64,000 bases of DNA from NCBI GenBank assembly GCA_964016885.1, contig OZ024741.1:113026001-113090000 (forward strand), read 5' to 3'. Positions 10,857-34,160 of this stretch are shown in pieces. The DNA is from Eledone cirrhosa. Taxonomy: Eukaryota. A program made the translations under genes and the position numbers. The notes under the pieces were generated by a model, which worked only from the letters and a program-made list of their open reading frames with translations, did no database searches and had not been told where the DNA came from. Each line of letters starts with the position of its first letter. The stretch's first letter is position 1.

Positions 10857-13800
10857 ATGAATCTGCGAGCTACCAAGCACCCACGTGAAGCGCCAATCCA
10901 GAGACCCTCCCCTACGAGTGTCGACAAATGCCCAAAACTCCGAGTTGGTACCATCAATGTAGGCTCAATGAAAGGAAGAGCAAGAGAAATCGTAGACATG
11001 CTAGAGCGAAAGGAAGTTGATGTATGCTGTGTGCAAGAGACTAGATGGAGAGGAGAGTCTGCTAGAGTCCTTGTAGGAAAAAGCCAGTGCTACAAATTTT
11101 TCTGGGTGGGAAATGACGATGGGATGGGTGGTGTAGGTATACTACTAGCTGACAAGTGGGTAGATAAAGTAATCTCAGTGTACAGGGTAAATGCAAGAAT
11201 CATTAAACTCAGACTAGTCCTGAAGAAGACAATTACCACAATAATATCAGCTTACGCACCCAAATCGGGGCTGCCAGATGAACTTAAGGATAGGTTTTAC
11301 GAGTCCCTAATACACACTACTGCTCTAACAGACGACAAGGACTTCCTAATCATCGCAGGAGATTTTAACGGACACGTAGGTAAACACAGCAACGGCTTCA
11401 ATAGAGTACATGGAGGCCATGGAGTTGGCACAAGGAATGAGGAAGGATTCAGACTCCTAGAATTCTGCAACGCCAATGACATGTCGATATGTAACACAAA
11501 CTTTAAAAAACCCGACAACCACCTGATCACCTATAGATCAGGGTAGCACTCTAGTCAGTTAGATTTTATCCTCATCAGAGGACGTGACAGATGGACGGTC
11601 GTAAACACAAAAGCCTTCCCTAGTGAGGAATGTACATCCCAACATAGCTTAGTTGTCAGCGACCTCACGGTCAGAACTAGACGAACCCGGAAACAGAGGC
11701 CAACCTGGAGAAGAAAGATCTGGAAGCTGAAAGTCCCCTCAACCAGTAACAGATTTAAAGATATTTTACTCAACGCCTACGACAGTAAAGAGGAACAGAT
11801 AGAGACATTTAAGGTAGAAGAGAACTGGGAGTTCCTAAAAAATAATTTACTAGAGGCGACGGATGAGGTCTGTGGCTGGAGTAAGACCTCAAGCAGGAGG
11901 AGAGTGACTTGGTGGTGGAACAATAAGGTAGATGAAGCAGTTAAGGCCAAGAGACAGGCATGGAAAGAATGGAAGAACGGGGGAAGCAGGGTACATTACA
12001 TAGAGACCAAGAGGGAAGCTAGGCGACAAGTATACTTAGCTAGGAGGGAAGCAGAGGATAGAAAATTCAAGTATGTTTTACAACGTGAGGACCAGACACA
12101 GGAGGTATTCAAGATTGCGAGGCAGTGTGTCAGAGATAGTTGTGATGTCATTGGAGAGAAGTGTATCCGGAATGATAAAGGTGAGCTTGCCCTCACAAGT
12201 GCTGAGAAGAAAGATGCATGGAAGAGTCATTATGATAGATTACTAAATGAGGAGAATGCATGGGAAGAAGAGACCCTACCCCAAGTAGACCCTATAGAGA
12301 GACCAGCAGTACAAGTCAGCAGCAGCGTAGTAAGTAAGGCAATCAAAGATATGAAGATGGGGAAGGCAACCGGTCCATCGGGTATAGCTGCCGAGATGCT
12401 GAAGGCATCTGGGTCTGTAGGTCACACTATAACCACACGTATCGTTAACCAGGTAATACTAGAAGGGGCCATACCAAAAGATTGGTGCAGTAGCATCATT
12501 GTCAACTGCTACAAAGGTAAAGGCGATGCACTAGATAGAGGAAACTATAGAGGTATAAAGTTGATGGACCAGGTCATGAAAGTAACAGAAAGAGTTATAG
12601 CATAGCTGATTAGGGACCGGGTGAATATAGACGAGATGCAATTTGGGTTTGTACCAGGAAGAAGCACCACTGATGCCCTCTTCCCTGTGAGGCAATTACA
12701 GGAAAAGTACCTAGCTAAAAGTAAGCCACTCTACTTGGCATTTGTCGACCTTGAGAAAGCCTTTGACAGAGTTCCACGTGCTGTAATCTGGTGGGCTCTT
12801 AGAAAACTAGGAGTAGATGAATGGCTTGTGAAAGCGGTACAAGCCATGTATAGGGGAGCAGTCAGCAAAGTTAGGATTAGCAATGAGTATAGCGAGGAAT
12901 TTAGCGTACAGGTTGGGGTCCACCAGGGCTCTGTTCTTAGCCCTCTCCTGTTCATCATAGTCCTGCAGGCAATAACGGAGGAGTTTAAGACCGGATGCCC
13001 ATGGGAACTCCTGTATGCTGATGACCTCGCACTCATAGCTGAATCTATGGTAGAACTAGAGAATAAATTCCAAACCTGGAAGCAGGGACTAGAGAGAAAG
13101 GGTCTCAAAGTCAACATGACCAAGACTAAGGTCCTTGTAAGTAGACGAGAAAACAGAACCCAGATCCCCTCGGGGAAATGGCCTTGCTCAGTATGTAGGA
13201 AAGGTGTAGGTAGGAACTCCATTCTCTGCCCCAAATGCAAACAATGGGTACACAAGAGATGTAGCGGGATCTCAGGAAGCTTAATTAAGAATGTAGGATT
13301 CACATGCAGCAGCTGTGCTGAAACAGCAAGCAGCAAACAGCCACAGGAAACAAGTACCACCAATCTCTGGGAGGGCCCTGTAGAAACAGTAGACAGCTTC
13401 TGCTACCTAGGTGACCGAATTAGCAACGGAGGTGGGTGTTCAGAAAGTACAATAACTAGGGTAAGAACGGGATGGAAGAAGTTTAGGGAACTACTACCAC
13501 TGCTAGCTGCAAAAGGCTTCTCCCTCAGAATGAAAGGCAGACTGTATGATGCGTGTATCCGAACAGGGATGTTGCATGGTAGTGAGACCTGGGCGCTGAA
13601 GGTGGAAGACTTACATAGATTAGAGAGAAACGAAGCCTGCATGCTCCGATGGATGTGTAACAGTAATATACGTGAACGACAAAGCATAAATGAATTGAGA
13701 GAGAGACTGAGCATAAGAGGAATCAAATGCTGTGTGCAGGAGAGGCGGTTGCGCTGGTATGGACATGTGATGCGTATGAAGGATGACAGCTGCATAAAAA

Positions 13801-13979
13801 GGTGCAGAGCACTAGAAGTTGATGGAAACCGCGGAGTGGGGAGACCCAAGATGACCTGGGATGAGGTGATAAAAGCCGACCTTACCCAATTACACCTCTC
13901 AAAGACAATGACACACGACCATGACTTCTGGCGTCACGCAGTAATACAGAGTACCCGACCTCCCATGGGTACATGCTGA
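10857..13979 (+). pseudogene. RTE polyprotein (APE endonuclease + reverse transcriptase), ~1040 codons with two in-frame TAG stops
   Basis: Track ORFs at 10857, 11904 and 12621 share one frame; motifs GTINV, VQETRW, GDFNGH, DLEKAFD, QGSVLSP, YADD; stops at 11544-11546 and 12603-12605; no frameshift seen. Confidence 0.93.
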
Positions 13980-20045: not shown

Positions 20046-22143
20046 CATCATCATCATCATCATCATCGTTTAACGTCCATGTTCCACGCTTGCATGGGTT
20101 TGGACGGGAATTTTCCCACTTGAGGCAAGAGTGGTTGCCATTGCTCGCATAGGACTGTCTGGCGGGTTTTCTACAGTTGGATGCCCTTCTTAACACCAAC
20201 CACATTTACAGTGAGGGACTGGGACGCTTTTACCGTGTTGCCTACACGGCCACATTACAGCGTGGACTGTCTGGCGGGTTTTCTACAGCTGGATGCCCTT
20301 CCTAACACCAACCACATTTACAGTGTGGGACTGTGAGATTTTTACCGTGTTGCCTACACGGCCACATTACAGCGTGGACTGTGTGTTATTTTGTCATGAC
20401 ACCTACACGATCACATTTGTTTCGGCCTGGATGTTGTGGCACCAACATAACTTTACATAGAAGGGGGCGGTGTGGATGGGGGTGGGAGAGGTGGGACGGG
20501 GTGTATTTTGTTAGAGATGCCTACTGACTGTAGTAGGTTTTACTATGTATTTAGGTAAGGCGGGTCTTCTCTATTACTGAGTACCACCAAAGGTCTCGGT
20601 CCAGTGACATTGTCTTGGAGAGGTGTAAGTGTGTGAGGTCGGAATTTATCAGCTCGTCCCGGGTTTTTCTGGGTCTGCCTACTCCGTGGCTACCGTCTAT
20701 CTTTATTGCCCTGCACTTTGTTATACAGCTGTCGTCTTTCATGCGCATCACGTGACCATACCAACGTAGCCTTCTCTCGAGTAAACAACATCTGATCCCT
20801 CTTATTTCTAATTTTTTCCTTAGTTCGTTTATGCTTTGCCGTTCACATATATTACTATTACACATCCAGCGGAGCATGCAAGCTTCGTTCCTCTCTAGTC
20901 TGCATATATCCTCGGCACACAATGCCCAGGTCTCACTGCCATGCAACATTGCTGTTCGTATGCAGGCATCATACAACCTGCCTTTCATTTTTAGGGAGAA
21001 CCCTTTAGCGGCTAATAGTGGTATAAGCTCTCTGAACTTTTTCCATCCAGTTCTGACTCTAGCTACTGTACGTTCAGAGCACCCTCCCCCACTGCTAATT
21101 TTGTCACCCAGGTAACGGAAGCTGTTCACTATTTCTATAGAACCCTCTGCGCAATTGAAAGAGCTAGTATTTAGTGGGCACTTGCTGCTACTTATTGCAC
21201 CAGAGCACCGGCCACATGTAAAATCTATGTTCTTAGTTAGCTTACCTGTGATCCCACTACATCTTTTATGCACCCATACTTTGCATTTGGGACATAAAAT
21301 GGAGTTTCTACCTACGCCTTTCCTACACACTGAGCATGGCCACTTCCCAGAAGGGACCGCCGCCTTATTTTCTTTCCTACAAACTAGAACTTTAGTCTTA
21401 GCCAGGTTAATTTTAAGGCCTTTTGATTCTAGGCCATGCTTCCATTTTTGGAATTTCTTCTCTAGCTCGGCCATTGATTCAGCTATGAGCGTTAGATCAT
21501 CTGCGTATAGGAGTTCCCATGGGCAGCCGGTCTTGAACTCCTCTGTTATAGCCTGAAGGGCAATAATAAATAGTAGGGGGCTAAGAACAGAGCCCTGATG
21601 GACACCAACTTTTACGCTAATCTCTTCACTATATTCGTTGTTAATTCTAACCTTGCTGACTGTTTCTTTATACATGGCTTGTATAGCTCTCACAAGCCAT
21701 TCGTCAACACCTAGTTTTCTAAGAGCCCACCAGATAATGGAATGGGGGACTCTGTCGAAGGCTTTCTCCAAGTCGACAAAAGCTAAGTATAGGGGTTTAC
21801 TTTTAGCTAGGTACTTCTCCTGTAGTTGTCGTACAATGAAAAGAGCGTCTGTGGTACTTTTGCCTGACACAAACCCGAACTGCATTTCATCTAGATCAAT
21901 TATCTCTCTGATTAGTTGCGCTATTACTTTTTCCGTGACCTTCATGACCTGATCGATTAATTTAATGCCTCTATAGTTACTCCTATCTAGGGCATCTCCT
22001 TTACCCTTATAACAGTTAATGATGATGCTGCTATGCCAGTCCTTCGGAACAAACCCATTCTGTACGACTTGGTTTACTATCCGGGTGACCATGGTGTGTC
22101 CCACCGTTCCAGATGCCTTCAGCATCTCAGCAACTATTTCCGA
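20046..22143 (-). mobile_element. 5'-truncated RTE LINE (RTE family B) with an open 524-aa RT/C-terminal ORF (20551-22125)
   Basis: DLEKAFD, QGSVLSP, YADD and the Cys/His insert; 3'UTR has a ~112-bp internal duplication; (GAT)n tail at 20046-20067. Confidence 0.93.
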
Positions 22144-22334
22144 AGGCGGAGGATTGGCAGTATCGGTAGAGGGTCGGACGCCATGCTTTGATGCATAGAG
22201 TTACGGCCTTTGCCATTCTGAGTTCAAATCCCGCCGAGGTTAACTTTGCCTTTCGTCCTTACGGGGTCGATAAAATAAAGTACCAGAAATGCACTGGGTA
22301 ATTGCTGGCCTTGTGCCTAAAAGTAGAAACAATT
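22144..22334 (+). mobile_element. SINE family B, young copy
   Basis: Abuts the RTE truncation point; shares the gagttacggcc.ttgccattc variant with the 19856 copy. Confidence 0.9.
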
Positions 22335-22490
22335 ATTTAGTCTAACTATCCTGACTTTGTTATGAATCTTTTCTAATCCATCTTTCCATTTGCCAATATC
22401 CTGTAAGATGTTTTCTAATTTCTTGAGAAAAAATATAGCAATAAAAGAATGTTTTAATGTTTTAAAATTAATTATTATTATTATTATTAT

Positions 22491-22786
22491 TACAGTTGCA
22501 CTTATCTTGCTTTATGTTCATACGAGTTATCACCAAGTCACAACCAGTGACCTCAAGAGACAACAAGGTCCGCCATGTTCAGGAAAGAACATACATACTC
22601 ACACATGCATCTTCAGTGTTTAGACTTGTGATGTACTTATATTGACAGAATCTTCCTTAGTATATGGGCAGTTCCCATTAGTACTATCTTTTGTATTTCT
22701 CCTATACGCGGGTTTCCTGGGATTTGCGATAAGTAATCATTAGACCCCTTTAGGTATCATTCCCAGAGCGCCTACAACGACTGGTA

Positions 22787-22790
<4 letters not shown>
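22491..22790 (-). mobile_element. R4/Dong-like family B, 5'-truncated 3' fragment
   Basis: Nearly identical to 27813-28110; bounded by (TTA)n on both sides. Confidence 0.9.
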
Positions 22791-22839
<49 letters not shown>

Positions 22840-22845
22840 ATTATT

Positions 22846-23290
22846 GTTCTTTGAGTCTCAGTCATTGATGTTATTTAACTGGAAAGTTTGTTGAAATGAA
22901 TATCAAGCCGTTACCTGCAGCCTAAGATATTCAGGACGTATCGGAGGGTTCTTGCTGTTCCCAGAAAGCATGCCTTTTGAAGTGTTCCAAAAAGCGTGGC
23001 TGGACTAATTTTCTTTAACCATCCTTGGAAACTTTTTGAGATAGTACCTAGTGCGCCTATGACAATTGGGGCCACTTTGACTTCATGGCAGTTCCAAATC
23101 CTTTTTACCTCCCACTTTAAGTCCTGGTATCGGTTAATTTTCTCCCTCTCCTTTTCTTGCACTCTTGTGTCAAATGGGAAGGCTACATCTACAATCAGGC
23201 ACAATCTTTTTTCCTTGTCCAAAACCACCAGGTCAGGCCTATTGTGTTCCAGTTTCTTGTCCTTCTGTATCCTAAAATCCCATAGCACAC
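22846..23290 (-). mobile_element. R4/Dong-like family A, 5'-truncated 3' fragment
   Basis: LWDFRIQ..NRPDLVVLD..EKINRY..GALG RLE domain; near-identical to 23320-23765; bounded by (TTA)n. Confidence 0.92.
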
Positions 23291-23319
23291 ATATTATTAT
23301 TATTATTATTATTATTATT

Positions 23320-26300
23320 GTTCTTTGAGTCTCAGTCATTGATGTTAGTTAACTGGAAAGTTTGTTGAAATGAATATCAAGCCACTACCTGCAGCCTCAG
23401 ATATTCAGGACGTATCGGAGGGTTCTTGCTGTTCCCAGCAAGCATGCCTTTTGAAGCATTCCAAAAAGCATGGCGGGGCCAATTTTCTTTAACCATCCCT
23501 GGAAACATTTTTGAGATAGTACCTATTGCGCCTATGACAATCGGGGCCACTTTGATTTCATGGCAGTTCCAAATCCTTTTTACCTCCCACTTTAAGTCCT
23601 GGTATCGGTTAATTTTCTCCCTCTCCTTCTCTTGCACTCTTGTGTCGAATGGGCAGGCCACATCCACAATCAGGCAGAATCTTTTTTTTTTGTCCAAAAC
23701 CACCAGGTCAGGTCTATTGTGTTCCAGTTTCTTGTCCGTCTGTATCCTAAAATCCCACAGCACCTTCACCTGATCGTTTTCTATCACCGACTCTGGCTTA
23801 TGCTCATACCACTTCTCAGAATGTGGTAAATTGTTTACTTTGCATAGGTGCCAGTGGATCACACTGCCCATCAAATCATGTCTCCAGCCCTTATAGTGAG
23901 TCTGGGCTAGGTGTATACACTCAGATACAATGTGAGCCACAGTCTCCTCTCTCTCTCCACAGATCCTGCACAGTGGGCTAGGCTCCTCCTTGTAAATATG
24001 GTGTTTCAGCCACTTCATTTTGAGGGCCTGCTCTTGCGCAGCCATTAACATTCCTTCTGTAGCCTTTTTAAGGTCAACCAGTTGCATGTTTGTGGATATC
24101 TGAATTCAGTTTTCTCAAAGAAGGTACTATGAAGGGATTTTTCATGTAGGCTGCTCTTTCTCCTTGTTGTTATTTCCTCCTTGGACATCCCCTGGTCTAT
24201 TGTCCTCTCCTTCAGTACAGTTCTGAGCATTGGTTCCTTACTATCAGTCACGTATTTGTGTAGGTTGTTTTTCTCCATCTGAACACAGTACTCTATGCTG
24301 ATAAGACCTCTTCCACCTTCAGATCTCCTTAAGTAGAGTCTATCGACATCACTCCTCTTGTGGAACATGCTGTAGATAGTCAATAGCTTCCTAGTCTTCC
24401 TATCCATTTCTTTTTGTTCAGCAACATTCCATCTCAGAATTCCTGCACTGTACCTAATAATAGACACAGCTCGGGAATTTACTACACTTATGGCATTCCT
24501 ACTGTTCAGATGTGACTTTAATACGCTCCTTACTCTCCAAATGTATTCAGATCTTATCAATTCCTTCATTTTTTTGTTCTTGATGTCATCAGCCTCCAGA
24601 ACACCCAAATACTTGTATCCTTCTTCAATGTCAATTTCCTTTATCATCTCACCTGTTGGTACCTGGATTCCATTGCTTCTGCTCAATTTACCCCTCTTCA
24701 TCACAAGGACTCCACACTTACTAATACCAAATTGCATACATATATCATTGCTGAAAATACGGACAGTGTCAACAAGCACATCCAACTCCTTCTCACTCTT
24801 CCCGAAGAGCTTAAGATCGTCCATGAAGAGGAGGTGATTGATGGAAAGCTCTCCCTTTCCCAACTTGCATCCTGCTCTCACTTTTCGCAGTATAATGGTC
24901 AGGGGCATCAGGGCAAGGACAAACAACAGAGGGGACAGACTATCTCCCTGGAAGATACCTCTCTTGATCTTCACGCCTCCCAAGGATTCTCCAGCTGATG
25001 TTAACTCTGTTTTCCAGGACTTCATACTTTTGCCCAACAACTGTCTGATGTTATCTGCCACCTTGAAGATCTCTAGGCTTTTGGTGATCCAAGAATGAAG
25101 CACCATGACAAATGCCTTTTTGTAGTCTAACCATCCCATGGCAAGACCAGTGTGTCTCCTCTTGCTATTCCTCATTACCATCTTATCAATAAGTAACTGG
25201 TTCTTTGTACCACGGGACTTCTTTCGGCATCCTTTCTGTTCGTCCGGTAACAAGTTGTTTGTGTGGAGGTGATGGTAGAATTCCTCAGGCATAATGCTTG
25301 TCAACAGTTTCCACATTACGGACAGACATGTGATAGGTCTATATTTGTTAACATCATTACCCTTGATTCGGTCTTTCATTACCAGAACTGTGGTACCTTT
25401 TGTCAACCACTCTGGTACCTCACCTGACATCAAGCAGTCATTGAACATGGTTGTCATTTTCGGGTGGAGGGATGTTATATTTTTAATCCAATACCCCTGC
25501 ACACCATCTGGGCCTGGTGATTTCCAGTTGGTTAGTTTTTTGGCCTGCCCCTTAAGAGTTTCAACTGTGATACTCAAATCAGTTTGTTGGTGTGCCTGTT
25601 CACTAATCTCCTTTTGTACTGTCTCAATCCACACTGCCTGGTCATTATGTTTAACATCCTGCTCCCATATTCCTCTCCAGAATGTCTTAGTTTGTTCCGC
25701 CTCAGGGATCAAGTCGTTGCCTATTTCTTTCCCTTCAAGCTGTCCAAACAGCATCTTCTGGTTGTTGTCAAACATGCGGTTCTGTTTATACTGACTGACT
25801 CTGCTCTCGTATCGCCTAATGTTTGCACTCTTTGCTACAATGCGTTGCTTCAGTTCCTTTATGATAATATTTAGCTTTTTCCTCCTAGTTTTGTACTTTA
25901 TTTCCAGTCTATTTTTAATGTCTATGTTTTTTAATGTCCCATTCAGTAGGGACTCAAGCTTTCCAATGTCATTTCTCATTTCCCTGATTTGGCCATTCAG
26001 TCGTTTCTTCCACCAAGGCTCAGATCTTTCTTGTTTGTTGTTTCCTCTCGCTTTTATTCCAAGTAATTTCCTCACCACATTTGCTGTTGCTTTGAGGATA
26101 TTGTTGCACTGGTGAAGGCTCCTCGCCTCAAGGTATGGGATGACTTTGTTTACCTTAGCTGTTGTTTCTTTTAACTTTTTTCTGTCTACAAATCTTAGGT
26201 TCATAGGTTTCCCACTATCATTGTTCAATTCATCTACCACTAAGTTTAGGATATCAACCAAATCTTGTCCTAGCCCGTCAGCATTCATCTCCTCAATGGC

Positions 26301-27730
26301 CGTATCTTTGTTCCAGGTATTATTTATTTCAGCATTCAGATCATTGTCTGCTTCGGATGGTTCCTCCATTCTCTCAACCTCTTCACCTTCATTTCCCACT
26401 GGCTCGTTTGCCTGGCATACACCACTCTCCATTTCCAACCTAATCTCTCTGCTCAGTTCCTCCAGTTCCAGCTCGCTTATCCACCCATTAGTTCTTATTA
26501 CCCGAGCCTGCCCGACCAATTTTTGTTCATCTAATTTAAGTAGACCAATCTCGTTCCAGATGTTATGCATCCATTTCCTATAGCCTTTCTCCTTGGGGTT
26601 ACTCTACAGGTAACATTGCATAACAGTTCTATTCAATTCTTTCGTCCAGTTGGTTCTGGTCCCTTTCCTTCTTCTTCTTCCTCCAACACCAGCACTATTT
26701 GGTTGACAGCCAGGTCCCTGCTGCTGAGCCAGGGAGTACCTGCTGGGTGAGAGTCTGTCACATGACATTCCAGTCTCCACTTCACCGTTATTCGAACTGC
26801 TTAGGTTCGACATTTAAACACTCTTATCGAGGATTGGTGAATGTATGGTTACATAACCACCGGTGATTTTTGTGTGGCACTATCACGCTGTAGACGAACA
26901 TAAATAAACAAAAAAACAAGCAGGTAAAAAAAAAAAAAAAAAAAAGAATAAGCATAAGTTTCCTTGTAATGTAATGTTTGAATGTCTGACTTAGTTTTTC
27001 CCTTCCCTTCTCTGTCTGTCTGTTTGTTTTTCTTTTCATTTTTCTTTTCTTTACGTTTTTCGTTGTTGCTGTGCTGCTTTGATTTTGATTTTTGGTTTTC
27101 TGATTTTTTGACCGGGTCATCAAATCAGTCTATTTATATCTTTTGATGCCTTCCTCTTTTAGTGGGGACACTACGATGCATGTCTTAGCAGGAGGTAGTG
27201 GGAGAGAATAACGGCGGTAGTGATAATGAGGCAGTGGTGGTGGTGGTGGTGGTGGTGGTGCTGTGCTAGTAGTACTTAGCAGGAGGTAGTGGGAGAGAAT
27301 AGCGGCGGTAGCGATAATGAGGCAGTGGTGGTGGTGATGTGATCGTAGTACTGTAGTGATGGTGTTGAAGTTGAAGTAGAAATAGAAGTTGAGGTAACTT
27401 GACTAGAGTTTTTGGCGTGGTAGTGGTGATGGTGGCGGTGGTGGTGTTGGTGGTGAAATTATTTTTCTGTCTGTCCACTTAGCCATTTAGCTATTTAAGC
27501 ATTTTGCCATTTTCCTCTTTTTCGACTATAACATTTCTGATCCAATATTAAATATTGGGGCCCTATGCCGTAAAGTGATGCATTATGGCTTGCTGAGCAT
27601 GAAAACTGTAATCTTATTGTTCATTTGTAATAAGAATTATTCTATCACAGTTGTTTTAAAGAACTAAAAATCAAAAACTTACGGGAGCGATTCCATAACG
27701 ATATATATCCACCATGTGCGTTTTCTTCTT

Positions 27731-27745
<15 letters not shown>
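23320..27745 (-). mobile_element. Full-length R4/Dong-clade non-LTR retrotransposon, family A
   Basis: N-terminal NWTKELN..VMQCY (myb-like), RT (YRPITCL, QGDSLSP, FMDD), CCHC knuckle CRICG..H...C, RHD, PD-D..K RLE; ~900-nt 5' leader; in (TAA)n. Confidence 0.92.
23377..26813 (-). pseudogene. R4/Dong family A polyprotein (RT + zinc knuckle + restriction-like endonuclease), disrupted
   Basis: ORFs starting at 26813 and 26570 are in frame across one TAG at ~26605; frameshifts near 24090 and 23510. Confidence 0.88.
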
Positions 27746-27812
<67 letters not shown>

Positions 27813-27813
<1 letters not shown>

Positions 27814-30800
27814 AGTTGCATTTATCTTGCTTTAAGTTCATACGAGTTATCACCAAGTCACAACCAGTGACCTCAAGAGACAACAAGGTCCGCCATGTTC
27901 AAGAAAGAACATACATACTCACACATGCATCTTTAGTGTTTAGACTTGTGATGTACTTATATTGACAGAATCTTCCTTAGTATATGGGCAGTTCCCATTA
28001 GTACTATCTTTTGTATTTCTCCTATACGCGGGTTTCCTGGGATTTGCGATAAGTAATCATTATACCCCTTAGGTATCATTCCCAGAGCGCCTACAACCAC
28101 TGGTATTGTTTTAGTTCTCAATTTCCACATTTTTCCAATTTCTATCTCCAGGTCCTTATACTTGCTCAATTTTTCAAATGTTTTTATAGATACATTCTTC
28201 TCTATTGGAACAGACATATCAATTAGCAGGCATACCCTCTTTTTAAAGTCCTTCAATATTATATCAGGTCTATTTGCATCTATTCTTCGGTCTGTTTGGA
28301 TGCTAAAGTTCCACAAGATTGAGATGTGATGGAGCAGGTCAAAATGCTTACACATTATCCAATGTATGTATTGTGCAGCTCTGTCATGCCTGTTTAGGTA
28401 TTCGGTTGGAGCTATAGGACTGCACATTGAAATTATATGGTCAATGGTCTCTGGTTGTTTTTTACATACACGGCATAATGGGCTGCATCCATTTTTTATT
28501 ATGTTGGCTTGGTAATTTTTCGTTGGCAGACACTGATCTTGTGCTGATATAATCAGTCCTTCAGTCTCCGATTTCAGTCCAGAGGATGCCAACCACTGAT
28601 GGGTTAAAGTTTTGTCAACATCAGGATTGTTAGCTCGCTCTGGGTATTTTCCATACAGAGGCTTTTCTTGCCATTTCTTAGCCAGTTTCTGTAGCAGTTC
28701 TTTCTTTGCAGTTACTTTTACCTGCTTTGCTTTTTCTGTGTTTTCCATTTCAGCAGTAAATGGGACTTCTGAAATTTGTAGTCCATTACTGTATCTTTGT
28801 GCATCTTTTGTAATGGAATATGATCTTTTGATGCTTTCGTGTTTCAAAACGAGTTTGATCATCCAATCATGTGATTCCCTTAGATATGTAGATAATCCAA
28901 TTGTTGCAGTTTTCAACGTAATGTCTAACTGGCTTAACCCACATCCTCCTTCTTTCCTAGGGAGATATATTCTATCGATATCTGCCTTAGGGTGATGCAT
29001 TCTGTGCATGGTTAAGAATTTTCGAATTTTTGTATCGAGCCTACGGATCTCTGTGCTTGACCAGTTGATGACATTGTAACTGTAGGTTACTACTGGTATG
29101 GCAAGCGTGTTTATGGCATCGATCCTATTCCTTGCATTCAATTCCGTTCTTAAGATTGCTCTTACTCTGCGGTAACATTCCTTCCTTATCCTTTCCCTCA
29201 TTGTCGAGTGCTTGATTCCGTCTCCTTCACAAACACCTAGATATTTGTAAGTTTTTTTCTTGATCAAGTTCTCTTATCACGTTCCCCCGATCAAGATTAA
29301 TGCCTGAACTCTTCAGCAGCTTTCCTCTGGTGAACGTTGCTTTGGCGCATTTATCTAGTCCAAACTCCATTTTAATGTCATCACTGAACTGCTCCACAGT
29401 GGATAATAGCCCTTGCAATTCTTCATCATTTTTTTGCAAATAGTTTCAGGTCATCCATGTAGAACAGGTGATTAATGATTTTGTCATAGACTTTATATCC
29501 ATGTTTTGTTTCATTGAGCATTTTACTTAATGGTATAAGTGCGATGCAGAATAAAAGCGGTGATAAAGAGTCACCCTGAAAAATTCCACAATTAATATTA
29601 ACTTCTCCAGCTTCCAGTGATTTTGTTTCACTATTCAAAAGGAGTGTCGTTTTCCATGTGTTCATACTGAATGACAAAAACCTCCTGACAACGGGGGATA
29701 TTTTGAAAATCTCTAAACATTTTTCAATCCAACTGTGTGGCAAACTATCGAATGCTTTTTTATAATCTATCCAAGCAATCGATAGATTTTTGTGTCTATT
29801 ATGACAATCTTCCAATATCATTTTGTTAACCAGAAGCTGATCCTTACAGCCATATGAGCCTCGTTTACACCCTTTCTGCTCAATGGGAAATAGGTCATTT
29901 GTTATCAGGTGGTCATATGTGTATTCAGTTAGGACTGATGTTAAAATTTTATACATTGTGGTCAAGCAAGTTATCGGTCTGGAATTTTTGGGATTGTTTG
30001 TCTCATCATTCTTCGGAAGCAGGAATGTAATGCCGTTAACTAGCCATGATGGTATCTTTTCTAGCTCCTTAACTATTTCATTGTAAAGTTGGGCTAACAG
30101 CTCATGAGACTCTCTGAAGGCATTTATCCAAAAGTTTTGTATTTTGTCTTTTCCTGGGGATTTCCATTTGCTGGTTTTTCTTAGAGCCAAGTGCAACTGT
30201 TCAACTGTTATATTTTCCCATATTTGTTCCTCAAGGTGAGCTGTATCTTTCATTTGTCTGTCTATCCATGGGGCATGTATGTTATGAACTTTTTCTTCGG
30301 CCCAGATCTTTTCCCAGAATTCTTGCACTTCCTCCTTGGGTGGTATTGATTTAGCAGTTATTGTTGACTTACCAATTTTTCTGTAGAAGTTTCTTTGGTT
30401 GTTTTTGAACATATTATTGTCCTTATAGAATCTAGATCATTTTTCAAAGCGCCTTATACAAGCAGCTTTGGCCGACACTTTTTGCTTGATTATTTCTATC
30501 AGCATGTCTATGTCACTTGTTGATTTTATACTGTACTTTTTTTTCAATTTTCTAAGTTTAGTTTGTTTAACATGTCCACCTACTTTATAGTTTGTTAAAA
30601 TTTCTATGTCAGATCGGAGAAGGTTTATTTGGCGATTGATGTTCTCTTGCCAGTAGATTTCTTGTGGGAATTCCTTTGTTTTTTCATCTTCACTCCACAT
30701 AAATGAGTGGTGACTTTAGCCGATGCATAATAGAGATGATTTAAATCAGTAATGTTTAGTTTGTTTGTGATGATAATGTTTTTGAGAATTATGTTAGTCT

Positions 30801-32716
30801 TGTGTATTATCTTTTGGTTCTGTTTGGAGTTCTGGATCTTAGGGAGGGTGTCTCGTTGCCCCATGTCAGATTCTTTCATTTTCATCCATTCGATCATAAT
30901 TTCATCCTTCAAGTTGGCAAGTTCATTCTCATTCATTTCTTTATCATTTACGATCTCATTATTTTCATTTGGAGTTTCATCTTGAGCATGCACTCCCTCC
31001 ACTTTTTCGATCCTTTCTTTAATTTGTTCTGTGCCAGTGATTCTGCCCCCACCCTGGGATTCGAAGTGTTACAATTTACCTCGTTTTCACTGACACATGT
31101 TTCATTTTCCCTTCGCTGACTTTGTGCTAATAGCTTGATCTGATCAATTTCTATATCAGTTAGTAACTTTTTTCTTACAATATTTCTTCGTATATTGGCT
31201 AGTTTGTTACTGTCAATATAGCCTCTGTTTTCGGGATGTTTCTTTTTCCAGTTGATATATGTCTGTTCTGTATTCGATGTATTTGATGGGTAGTACATGG
31301 CAGTGTAGAAAGCCTCAAGGACTTCTTTATTATCTTCCCTTGACCATTTTTCTCTCTTTTTCTTTGGATTTCTTGGTGGTGAGCATGGAGGGCCAACAGT
31401 AGGAGTATTCCGGTTATGGGAGGTCTCCAGCTCCGAAGTGATGGGAAGGTTTGAACCATTAGCTGATTTTTCGACCCCAGTCTGGTTCCTCTCTGAGGGA
31501 CGCGGCCCTTTTTTACCCGGGTGACGGCCGATCCGGTATGAGATTTTATCATTAGACATTTACTTTATTTTGTCGCGTTTTATCCTTATCCGCCAAGGGG
31601 TAATCATTTCGTGTTACCACTTCTAGAACGAGTGTCAACCAAGACTAGAGGGGTCGTTCTCCCCTAGAGACACGGCTATTCCCCGCCGGCCGCCATCCCG
31701 GTATTTCTTGGTCACGGGGTTTTCTTTTTGTTGTTTTTTTAAATTGTTATTATCATGAGTGGTTCCTTAATGTGAGCATTGCGTGGCTTAAGAATGAAAT
31801 TATTAATAATTGTCTCCACTCCAGGCACAAGGCCAGCAATCACCCAGTGCATTACAATAATATAATATACTTTTTGCTGAAGTTGCCTGTTATTGTTGTT
31901 GGCTATGTCGGTGGTGGTGCCGGGGCTTTTTATATTGTTGGTGAGGAAGGGGTGAGCCAGCAGTGCCATAGTTGTTGATGTTGACGTTTGGCCGGGGTGG
32001 CCAGGTCACTAAGTCAATCTATTTATATCTTTTGCTAGCCTCTCCCTTGTCTAGTGATACCGCCACCTTCCCCTTTCTCTCTCAAGTTAACAGGGGAATA
32101 GTGGTGGTAGCAATGCAGGAGTGGTGGCGGCGGTGATGGGATAGTGGTAGCAATGATGGATGGAGTGGTGGCGGCGGTGGCGTTGTCGTTACTGAGTTTT
32201 GTGATATGTAGTATCTATGAGTTTGTGTCGCGTATATTTAATATATATTGTGTTGACATATTCCCGTAAAATTGGAATTAAACATTTTGTTAAAACTTGA
32301 GACAATAATAATAGTAATTATTATTATGATGCTGGGATTGGTGGTGGTGGTGGTGAAATTGCCGTTATCTGGCTGTTATATTTAGTGTGATGGGGTAGGT
32401 GGTGTATCAAGTTTCTGGTGTTGGTGAAATTGCTGTTATTTGGCTGTTCTATATAGTGTAGACAGAGGGTGTTTTCTTCCATTTATAACCATTTTCTTTT
32501 TTTGAATACAAAATATATAATACAAAATTGAATATTTGAGCGATATAACAATATAATATGGATCCGAAATTTTATGGGACTTGATTCGGTGGTTTATGCA
32601 ACATTTGTACTAAGAATTGTTATTTCACAATTGATTTAAATATGTTAAAAATCAAAAACTTACAGGAGCGATTTCATGACCTTCTACCACCTCGTGCGTC
32701 TTCTTCCCTTCTTCTT

Positions 32717-32745
<29 letters not shown>
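27813..32745 (-). mobile_element. Full-length R4/Dong-clade non-LTR retrotransposon, family B
   Basis: KWSREDNK..LEAFY N-terminus, RT (RPITCL, QGDSLSP, YMDD), CRVC..H...C, RHD, NRPDII..D..K; ~1.1-kb 5' leader; flanked by (TTA)n and (TTC)n(TTA)n. Confidence 0.92.
27957..31559 (-). pseudogene. R4/Dong family B polyprotein with several frameshifts and stops
   Basis: Collinear ORF pieces starting at 31559, 31002, 30700, 30412, 29439 and 29267; small deletion near 28325 relative to family A. Confidence 0.88.
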
Positions 32746-32785
<40 letters not shown>

Positions 32786-33351
32786 CATTATTATTATTAT
32801 TATTAATAATATTTGGATCAGAGAGGAGTGTTGGATTGGCAATATCAGTAGAATGTTAGACAAAATGCTTTTTAATATTTAGTTAAACTTTTCATATTCT
32901 GAGTTCAAATCCTGTTGAGGTCAACTATGCTTTTAATCCTTATAGGGAAGGTTATTCAATTTCACATATTGCTCTACTTATCAGCCCTATTGTTACCTTA
33001 TTTCTAATGAAAGACACTGCATAGTTTCAAATCATTTTGAAAATAATAAAAAATTTGGAGGAATTTAGTAATATAACTAACTTTCTCATTATTAAGATGT
33101 TTTTGTAGCATAATATAAAGGTTCTTACATGAAATTAGGCTTTGAAGGTTTTTAGAAAAATGTAAACAATTTACAACAAACAGTTTCATATTGTGATTTT
33201 GATATGACTAGGTAATTGGAGATATAATTTTGTACTATAAACGTTTCAGTACTATATATCAAATGAAAGTAAATGATTACATGTATCAATTAAGTATGAA
33301 AGTAACCCCAAATTTGGAAAAATGAAATAAAATAATTAATTAGTAAGCATG

Positions 33352-33570
33352 AAGGCTATGGATTGGCAGAATCATTAAAATTTCAGACTAAATACTTTGC
33401 AGCATTTAGTTACGTCCTTTTACATTCTGAGTTTAAATCCTGATTAGGTCAACTTTGCCTTTCATCCTTCCATGCTTAATAAAATAAAGAACCACTAAAG
33501 AACTGGAGTTGATATAATCAACTTCCCCCGGTCCACAAACTGTTGGATTTAAGTCAAAATTAGAAATAAT
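33352..33570 (+). mobile_element. SINE family B, degenerate copy
   Basis: ggattggcagaatc...gagtttaaatcc...ggtcaactttgcctttcatcc. Confidence 0.7.
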
Positions 33571-33670
33571 TGCTTAACAAAAATTTCTAAAATAAAATTA
33601 TGATAGAAGATTTTAATATAAATATTAACATTTTAAAATGAGCAGTTTTGTATCATAAATCTGGGGTGGC

Positions 33671-33900
33671 TTAACCCTGTAGCATTTAAATTACTCTATA
33701 TATACTATTGTATTTTCATGGTAAAGCCTTTGCCTCAGATAATTATCTCACATAATATCGAATCTATGAGATTTTGATATCATTTATTTTGAGAAAAATA
33801 CCTTAACATCAGTATGAGTGGTTGGTTACAGTTGGTTTGAGTGGAAAGAGGTGAAATAATTCTTGCTTGGATATTGCCGGTTTAAATGCTAAAGGGTTAA
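33671..33900. mobile_element. piggyBac-type MITE nested in a related MITE
   Basis: TTAA-ccctgtagcatttaaa ... tttaaatgctaaaggg-TTAA; host element resumes ggtggcttggtatcaaacgggtt (uninterrupted relative at 56060-56099). Confidence 0.8.
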
Positions 33901-34160
33901 GGTGGCTTGGTATCAAACGGGTTTGAGAAATTGGATTATACTCTGCCATGGATGTTTCTCTGTCATCAGCAGAACAAATGGATGGTGATGGTAATCTAAT
34001 GGATGGTAGCATAATGAGACTTTTGCTTGTAAACAAATCGCATATTATTAATATTTGATATAAAACTCACCAATATATATATAAATATACATATAAATAT
34101 AAAGGTATATATGTACATATATGAGTGTGTCTATATATATATACATATATATATATATAC

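What the first reader, a model, noticed from the sequence alone, without database searches (positions are those of the whole stretch)
26813..27745. R4/Dong family A leader appears to contain a retained spliceosomal intron
Seen on the minus strand: about 40 nt inside the 5' end is GTAAGT (GT at 27682-27681). About 75 nt upstream of the ORF ATG (26813) is a strong acceptor: a ~20-T run, then acctgcttgtttttttgtttatttatgttcgtctaCAG (AG at 26889-26888). The ~795-nt interval holds the low-complexity leader and a 99-codon uORF start. GTAAGT sits at the same position in the divergent family B (32663-32658). Established: TPRT retrotransposons normally lose introns; retention is best known in Penelope-like elements. 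Inference: spliced RNA could serve as mRNA while unspliced RNA is the transposition template, a splice-controlled switch in an RLE element. Family B has only a weak acceptor candidate (~31623, cactcgttctAG).
Basis: partly seen in the sequence, partly recalled or inferred. Interest (0 to 1): 0.75.

Follow-up and report, generated by a model that had tools for sequence, protein, structure and literature searches.

The report
Leaky splice donor in Dong retrotransposon
A jumping gene carries a splice-start signal 45 bases from its front end, and four genomic copies are joined exactly there to a splice-end signal, so the signal likely works now and then; but the long intron first proposed is missing from none of the copies searched, so the signal likely serves transcription rather than an on/off splicing switch.

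Summary
Of 2,034 genomic matches to the sequence just before the donor, 7 loci (6 events) break exactly at the GT. Four are canonical GT-AG joins: two independent full-length family-B copies lack a 167/168-nt intron, and two join to a SINE's acceptor. A control anchor showed no long deletion in 33 of 61 loci viewed. The donor in family B is not independent evidence, because A and B share one ~110-nt head (80% identical) on proteins 34-40% identical. A similar motif heads L1/Tx1-type LINEs, where no join was found among 2,541 copies. Best reading: a donor inside a likely promoter module, with rare cryptic splicing leaving spliced retrocopies, as human L1 SpIREs do. A splice switch is not excluded without RNA data. 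The scan reached nearly this result before on other DNA of this genome (e1-9807130).

The parts
27723..27812 (-). (TAA)n then (AAG)n run: target/junction between the 3' end of the family-B element and the 5' end of the family-A element
27683..27727 (-). First 45 nt of the element; the piece kept upstream of the join in spliced copies
27677..27682 (-). Splice-donor motif GTAAGT; 7 genomic loci break exactly here, 4 with canonical GT-AG joins
27622..27727 (-). Shared head module, 80% identical between families A and B, extending about 60 nt past the donor; likely internal promoter (inferred)
27508..27510 (-). ATG at about +215, kept in 116 of 127 leaders and opening only short frames; same position as the ORF1 start of L1/Tx1-type heads (likely relic)
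27130..27138 (-). TATA-like block shared with family B (32019-32027); role untested
26824..27120 (-). 98-aa uORF crossing the AG; frame and length not conserved among copies
26888..26945 (-).
26814..26887 (-). 74-nt spacer before the ORF, with a palindromic 19-nt unit in variable copy number among copies; TAA directly precedes the ATG
23377..26813 (-). Family-A ORF (RT, CCHC knuckle, PD..D endonuclease motif), broken into 69-, 841- and 236-aa frames in this copy
   Evidence: open 1,141-aa frame in subfamily C copies
32496..32663 (-). 168-nt GT-AG interval in the family-B leader; the homologous interval is precisely missing in two independent genomic copies (L181, L187)
31623..31624 (-).

Best explanation
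The element's front end holds a splice donor at +45, at which four genomic copies are joined precisely to a downstream AG, and which likely acts mainly as part of the element's promoter or early-transcription signal, with splicing a rare side-effect. Shown: the element is a (TAA)n-flanked RT/RLE LINE. Its ~110-nt head is shared by families whose proteins are 34-40% identical. Two independent full-length family-B copies lack exactly a 167/168-nt GT-AG segment, two further copies join the donor to a SINE's AG, and no copy searched lacks the 795-nt segment. Inferred: Pol II starts at the 5' end. The donor is kept because it lies in a promoter element and/or recruits U1 to protect the A-rich transcript from early termination. 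The full-length unspliced RNA is the usual template and probably also the mRNA. A small share of RNA (about 0.2% of inserted full-length copies) is spliced to a nearby AG and retrotransposed once as a dead-end copy. The head was probably captured from an L1/Tx1-type LINE, so the 'intron' is that 5' UTR plus a decayed ORF1 start plus the older Dong leader.
For: Donor side: 2,005 matches continue with N-T and 29 do not. Of the 29, 16 are point changes, 6 are unrelated DNA and 7 break exactly at the donor. L181 and L187 resume right after the AG found in 78 of 99 and 79 of 100 aligned relatives. They run to the element's 3' end and sit in different sublineages (94.8% to each other, 97.7% and 97.0% to unspliced copies). 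P(at least 4 of 6 ends directly after AG) = 2.4e-4. Control anchor about 50 nt downstream: 0 long deletions and 1 short one in 33 of 61 loci viewed. Conservation of GTAAGT (97-100%) equals that of intron-side blocks in 96 leaders. L1/Tx1-type heads (two ORFs; APE+RT+zf-RVT) carry donor-like motifs at +30 to +45 and an ATG near +215, with 0 joins in the 5 variants among 2,541 copies. Precedent: human L1 keeps a donor inside a RUNX3 site, and mutating it cuts RNA to about 18% (PMC5860796). 5' splice sites protect transcripts from Restrictor (PMC12211998 abstract).
Against: Only 4 canonical events, none of them a plain intra-leader splice in an A or C copy. Two other breaks at the donor are non-canonical (L177/L178 end 5 nt before the AG; L194 looks like a microhomology deletion). 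In L169 and L176 the SINE piece is 3'-truncated, so these are chimeras, and their join has a 1-nt ambiguity. The distal acceptor looks better than chance and keeps a ~90-nt AG-free zone in both A and C, which this reading does not explain. The unspliced leader has 7-12 upstream ATGs, awkward for an mRNA. The promoter and U1 roles are untested. The Tx1 likeness rests on modest alignment z-scores (at best 3-5.5 among 60 comparisons).
Confidence: 0.65

Rival explanations
1. One reading: the 795-nt intron is spliced efficiently to give the mRNA, but that RNA cannot be inserted, because it has lost a protein-binding segment just upstream of the AG; only unspliced or proximally spliced RNA is copied.
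For: The donor is likely functional. The acceptor has a strong tract and a long AG-free zone in A and C. Splicing would cut upstream ATGs from 15 to 3 in this copy. All 7 joined loci keep the leader part just upstream of the ORF. Subfamily C lost the first ATG and gained one 11 codons on, suggesting AUG-dependent initiation.
Against: 0 spliced copies at this junction (95% bound about 0.2% of A/C full-length copies) while weaker AGs were used. AG positions are not protected among copies: -1 changed in 32, -3 in 17, -4 in 15, -2 in 5, though dead copies say little about selection. Family B, which has the same donor, lacks such an acceptor. It needs trans-mobilisation, against L1-type cis-preference.
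Confidence: 0.14
2. The real intron is the short 167/168-nt one in the head, a regular 5'-UTR intron inherited with the captured leader, regularly spliced and mostly excluded from insertion.
For: Two independent exact removals. The AG is present in 37 of 37 B leaders aligned and lies 4 nt before the relic ATG.
Against: The AG follows an A-run with only 50% pyrimidines. It was found in only 6 of 20 A/C leaders of the sample. Only 2 spliced copies were found even with a relaxed pattern.
Confidence: 0.1
3. No splicing: the joins are deletions or template switches at a fragile position, and GTAAGT is a chance motif in a promoter.
For: 2 of 6 events are non-canonical and 2 are chimeras. GTAAGT occurs 29 times in the window's two strands.
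Against: The same AG was reached twice independently without microhomology. The control anchor shows no such breaks. P = 2.4e-4.
Confidence: 0.08
4. The pyrimidine tract is the 3' arm of an RNA hairpin with the upstream purine tract, which masks it or is its real function.
For: Predicted in the MFE and centroid structures of both A and C and in the alignment fold.
Against: z = 0.38 and -0.98; 0 of 17 pairs with two-sided change; duplex z about -1 and absent in the 4 oldest copies. This is compatible with the best explanation rather than exclusive of it.
Confidence: 0.03

Closest known systems
Human L1 SpIREs (Larson et al. 2018, PMC5860796; seen: abstract, Results sections 7 and 10, first part of Discussion)
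   Same: One conserved donor near the 5' end of a LINE leader; several acceptors; rare spliced RNAs retrotransposed as full-length copies; donor lying in a conserved regulatory block
   Different: RLE (Dong/R4) clade in an invertebrate; about 0.2% (4 of 2,034) against about 2% (131 of 6,609); no recurrent SpIRE subfamily; promoter role of the donor untested here; two joins go to a SINE
R4/Dong clade non-LTR retrotransposons (PMC7998251 passages; Dong-R4 in octopus, PMC13282606 and PMC9115989 passages)
   Same: Single ORF with RT and C-terminal CCHC/PD..D endonuclease motifs, no APE, no N-terminal zinc fingers, (TAA)n target
   Different: 0.6-1.4-kb leader with a head shared between families only 34-40% identical in protein; the passages read mention no splicing
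Intron-retaining Penelope-like elements (recalled; only a search listing seen)
   Same: Splice signals within a retroelement's leader
   Different: Here no regularly spliced intron is shown, and the spliced forms found in the genome use other acceptors
NeSL-1 of C. elegans (recalled; paper not held)
   Same: RLE element in which splice signals near the 5' end may serve expression
   Different: NeSL-1 inserts into spliced-leader genes; this element targets (TAA)n and carries its own donor

Membership tests
R4/Dong clade | Single ORF with RT domain | tested here: met
   RVT_1; 1,141-aa open frame in several C copies; best PDB hits are R2 proteins
R4/Dong clade | C-terminal CCHC knuckle and restriction-like endonuclease; no APE | tested here: met
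   C-X2-C-X8-H-X4-C and R-P-D-X12-D seen by eye (motif recalled); no Exo_endo_phos hit
R4/Dong clade | (TAA)n target | tested here: met
   5' and 3' junctions in TAA runs; target as stated in PMC7998251
R4/Dong clade | N-terminal Myb/SANT-like domain without zinc fingers | tested here: inconclusive
   No zinc finger seen; Pfam gave no Myb hit for the N-terminal 104 aa; no profile-profile test run
R4/Dong clade | RT phylogeny groups with named R4/Dong elements | not tested
   No homolog named as R4/Dong among the 120 listed
SpIRE (spliced integrated retrotransposed element) | Precise loss of a GT-AG segment relative to parent copies | tested here: met
   L181, L187; L169, L176 canonical but chimeric
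SpIRE (spliced integrated retrotransposed element) | Retrotransposition hallmarks (intact 5' end, body to the 3' end, dispersed) | tested here: met
   Both start after a TAA/AAG run, extend to the B 3' end, and lie on different contigs; target duplications cannot be read inside microsatellites
SpIRE (spliced integrated retrotransposed element) | Junction seen in RNA; reduced promoter activity | not testable with these tools
   Needs RNA reads and a reporter assay
   GTAAGT in 101 of 127 leaders (set includes loci fetched for donor variants); AG in 72 of 76 A/C leaders
   Donor equals flanking blocks; acceptor -1 is changed as often as or more often than -3 and -4
   0, 57/60
   Needs RNA reads

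The most novel reading that the evidence does not exclude
A Dong/R4 LINE uses a captured Tx1-type head and its own strong acceptor to make a spliced mRNA that is excluded from insertion, so that splicing separates message from template in a TPRT element; the few spliced retrocopies are mis-splices that kept the segment needed for insertion.
Probability: 0.14. Interest if true: 0.78.

Novelty: new member of a known kind. Interest (0 to 1): 0.38.

Why it matters
Spliced retrocopies appear in the papers listed only for human L1 (searches listed none for RLE or Dong elements, judged by titles and abstract starts). Finding them in an RLE element argues that its RNA is a Pol II transcript starting at its own 5' end and seen by the spliceosome in the germline, unlike R2-type co-transcription (recalled). 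It also suggests that a donor kept near the 5' end without productive splicing may be general among LINE promoters, since the L1/Tx1-type families here have one too. The more striking switch model remains open only through a special assumption.

Tried and rejected
Sequencing runs: no RNA holder listed. Contigs of X1-X4, kind not on record, were laid on the A leader, and X4 alone on a B+C locus. No GT-AG joint appeared and one X4 contig crosses the C acceptor unspliced, but this is used neither for nor against. The depth drop at 26894-27058 came from the tool's repeat skipping, and summed contig depths were not interpreted.

Rfam found no ribozyme or snRNA match reaching a gathering score in 22000-34000 (4 chance-level hits). 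Folding of the head and of the B pre-ORF region was unremarkable (z 0.82 and 0.99). Hairpin masking of the acceptor was inconclusive. The uORF was rejected as a conserved protein.

An HMM of the head found no distant heads in the loci held, so the Tx1 likeness is below that sensitivity. Relaxed junction patterns found no further spliced copies.

Limits of the counts: they need exact anchors. Joins whose next bases read N-T-A are hidden among the 1,981 such matches, of which about 30 were viewed; all 24 N-T-not-A matches were viewed and none is joined. 28 of 61 control loci and 2 of 32 loci were not viewed. 31 loci fetched for donor variants were left out.

The NeSL-1 and Dong papers were not held. 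PMC8226300 and PMC4640811 passages held nothing on introns in RLE elements. No supplements were read; octopus repeat libraries there may describe these leaders.

Full report
Setting. The window lies in a 3.0-Gb animal genome, probably an octopus; that label comes from recall and an earlier scan note, not from a call of mine. Positions 23377-32710 hold two non-LTR elements head to tail on the minus strand, separated by TAA/AAG runs. Both encode RT. An open 1,141-aa frame in a young A-lineage subfamily ('C', 967 exact 20-mer matches) shows RT, a CCHC knuckle and a PD..D motif, no APE, and best PDB hits to R2 proteins. With the (TAA)n target this fits Dong/R4 as described in PMC7998251 (passages); no RT tree was made. 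The window's A copy is broken.

Observation. All coordinates are right. The acceptor is unusually strong in this copy (22 of 3,499 YAG sites by 40-nt pyrimidine fraction), partly through a 20-T run whose median is 8.5 in 36 A copies and 5 in 40 C copies. The AG is kept in 33 of 36 A and 39 of 40 C leaders, with AG-free zones of about 90 nt. Donor-to-AG distance ranges from 502 to 1,308 nt. The uORF is not conserved.

Family B is not an independent witness. A and B leaders are 80% identical over 108 nt, about 60 of them past the donor, while the proteins are 34-40% identical over the long alignments. Heads and ORFs occur in mixed combinations. In 96 leaders GTAAGT is 97-100% conserved, the same as blocks 25-60 nt inside the 'intron'.

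Is the donor used? A 14-mer ending at the donor matches 2,034 places: 2,005 continue with N-T and 29 do not. All 29 were read: 16 point changes, 6 unrelated, 7 breaking exactly before the GT. L181 and L187 resume directly after an AG 167/168 nt downstream in the B leader (window 32497-32496). They are full length and belong to different sublineages. L169 and L176 resume directly after the AG at the front of a SINE. L177/L178 (one duplicated event) end 5 nt before the AG, and L194 is non-canonical. Four of six ends after AG has P = 2.4e-4 at an AG rate of 0.065. A control anchor about 50 nt downstream gave 61 variants; 33 were viewed, with 0 long deletions and 1 short one. I infer rare splicing followed by retrotransposition, about 4 in 2,000 full-length copies.

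The junction pattern gave 0, and none of the 29 donor-side variants continues with CG. From the other side, 2,140 copies carry the intact flank. Variants at -2 (10 matches), -3 (17), -4 (15) and -1 (32) were fetched, and 72 of 74 were read. None is joined to the 5' head; they are point changes, small indels, truncations or parsing duplicates. The 95% bound is about 0.2% of A/C full-length copies (taking 20 of 30 sampled donors as A/C). It is not proof, because an RNA that lost an insertion signal would leave no copies, and all 7 joined loci do keep the leader part next to the ORF.

Where the head comes from. Earlier scan notes suggested a Tx1 origin, which I tested in part. Two-ORF APE/RT/zf-RVT elements share the TAA arrays. 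Their ~215-nt heads have donor-like motifs at +30 to +45, two of them nearly matching the Dong motif, and an ATG near +215, where 116 of 127 Dong leaders keep an ATG with only a short frame. Alignment z-scores reach 3-5.5 at best and an HMM missed these heads, so homology is likely but not shown. In one such family, 5 of 2,541 copies deviate at the motif and none is a join.

Mechanism. Shown: the anatomy, the shared head, four canonical joins, and no distal join found. Inferred: the head is an internal Pol II promoter; the donor is retained for transcription, as a factor site or through U1 protection; unspliced RNA is the template and probably the message; occasional splicing yields dead-end copies. 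This parallels human L1, where a common donor in a RUNX3 site gives SpIREs at about 2% and mutating it lowers RNA to about 18% (PMC5860796: abstract, sections 7, 10 and first part of 17). It is also consistent with 5' splice sites blocking Restrictor (PMC12211998, abstract only). Unexplained: why a good-looking distal acceptor is kept, and how an ORF behind 7-12 upstream ATGs is translated. A masking hairpin was predicted but not supported above chance.

Novelty. Ten paper searches listed no report of splicing or spliced retrocopies in Dong/R4 elements, judged by titles and abstract starts. Passages of the two octopus TE papers showed no match for 'splic'; their supplements were not read. This is a new member of a known phenomenon. 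The scan had already reached nearly the same conclusion on another copy (e1-9807130); I saw that note, and it is not independent support. Interest 0.38; the switch model keeps a probability of about 0.14.

Noticed in passing
window 27622-27727 and 32600-32710; loci L027-L029, L202, L204, L215: Leaders are mosaic: the same head sits on ORFs only 34-40% identical, and B/C-type heads occur on 7 of 39 A-type ORFs, suggesting repeated leader exchange within TAA arrays.
   Followed up: partly
window 31789-31855 (minus strand): The family-B leader carries a fixed ~67-nt antisense fragment of the TAA-associated SINE also seen near 22140-22335.
   Followed up: partly
window about 22316-22335 (minus strand); L100, L115: The SINE begins with a pyrimidine tract plus AG in about a third of aligned copies (TG in about half) and served as the acceptor in two joins; it often follows element 3' ends.
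   Followed up: partly
window 26811-26816 and 31557-31562: In both families TAA directly precedes the ORF's first codon; in B it ends an in-frame 15-aa uORF in most copies, a possible stop-start coupling.
   Followed up: no
L121-L150: Subfamily C lost the first ATG (ATA in 44 of 44) and has ATG at codon 12 in 43 of 44, where A mostly has GTG; most C copies keep a 75-76-aa uORF ending 35 nt before the ORF.
   Followed up: partly
L177, L178: The join at the donor ends at AA, 5 nt before the usual AG; a mutated or RNA-edited acceptor is possible but untested.
   Followed up: no
L157:5600-6000, L221, L373: L1/Tx1-type LINEs lie head to head with Dong elements across the same TAA run, in opposite orientation.
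   Followed up: partly
window 22818-23763: The family-A 3' end is tandemly duplicated (475-nt period) after a TAA run.
   Followed up: no
window 10857-13979 (+) and 20551-22125 (-): Other LINE copies with APE and/or RT and a PHD-finger match inside the RT ORF.
   Followed up: no
L306: An inverted element head abuts a copy truncated at the distal AG.
   Followed up: no
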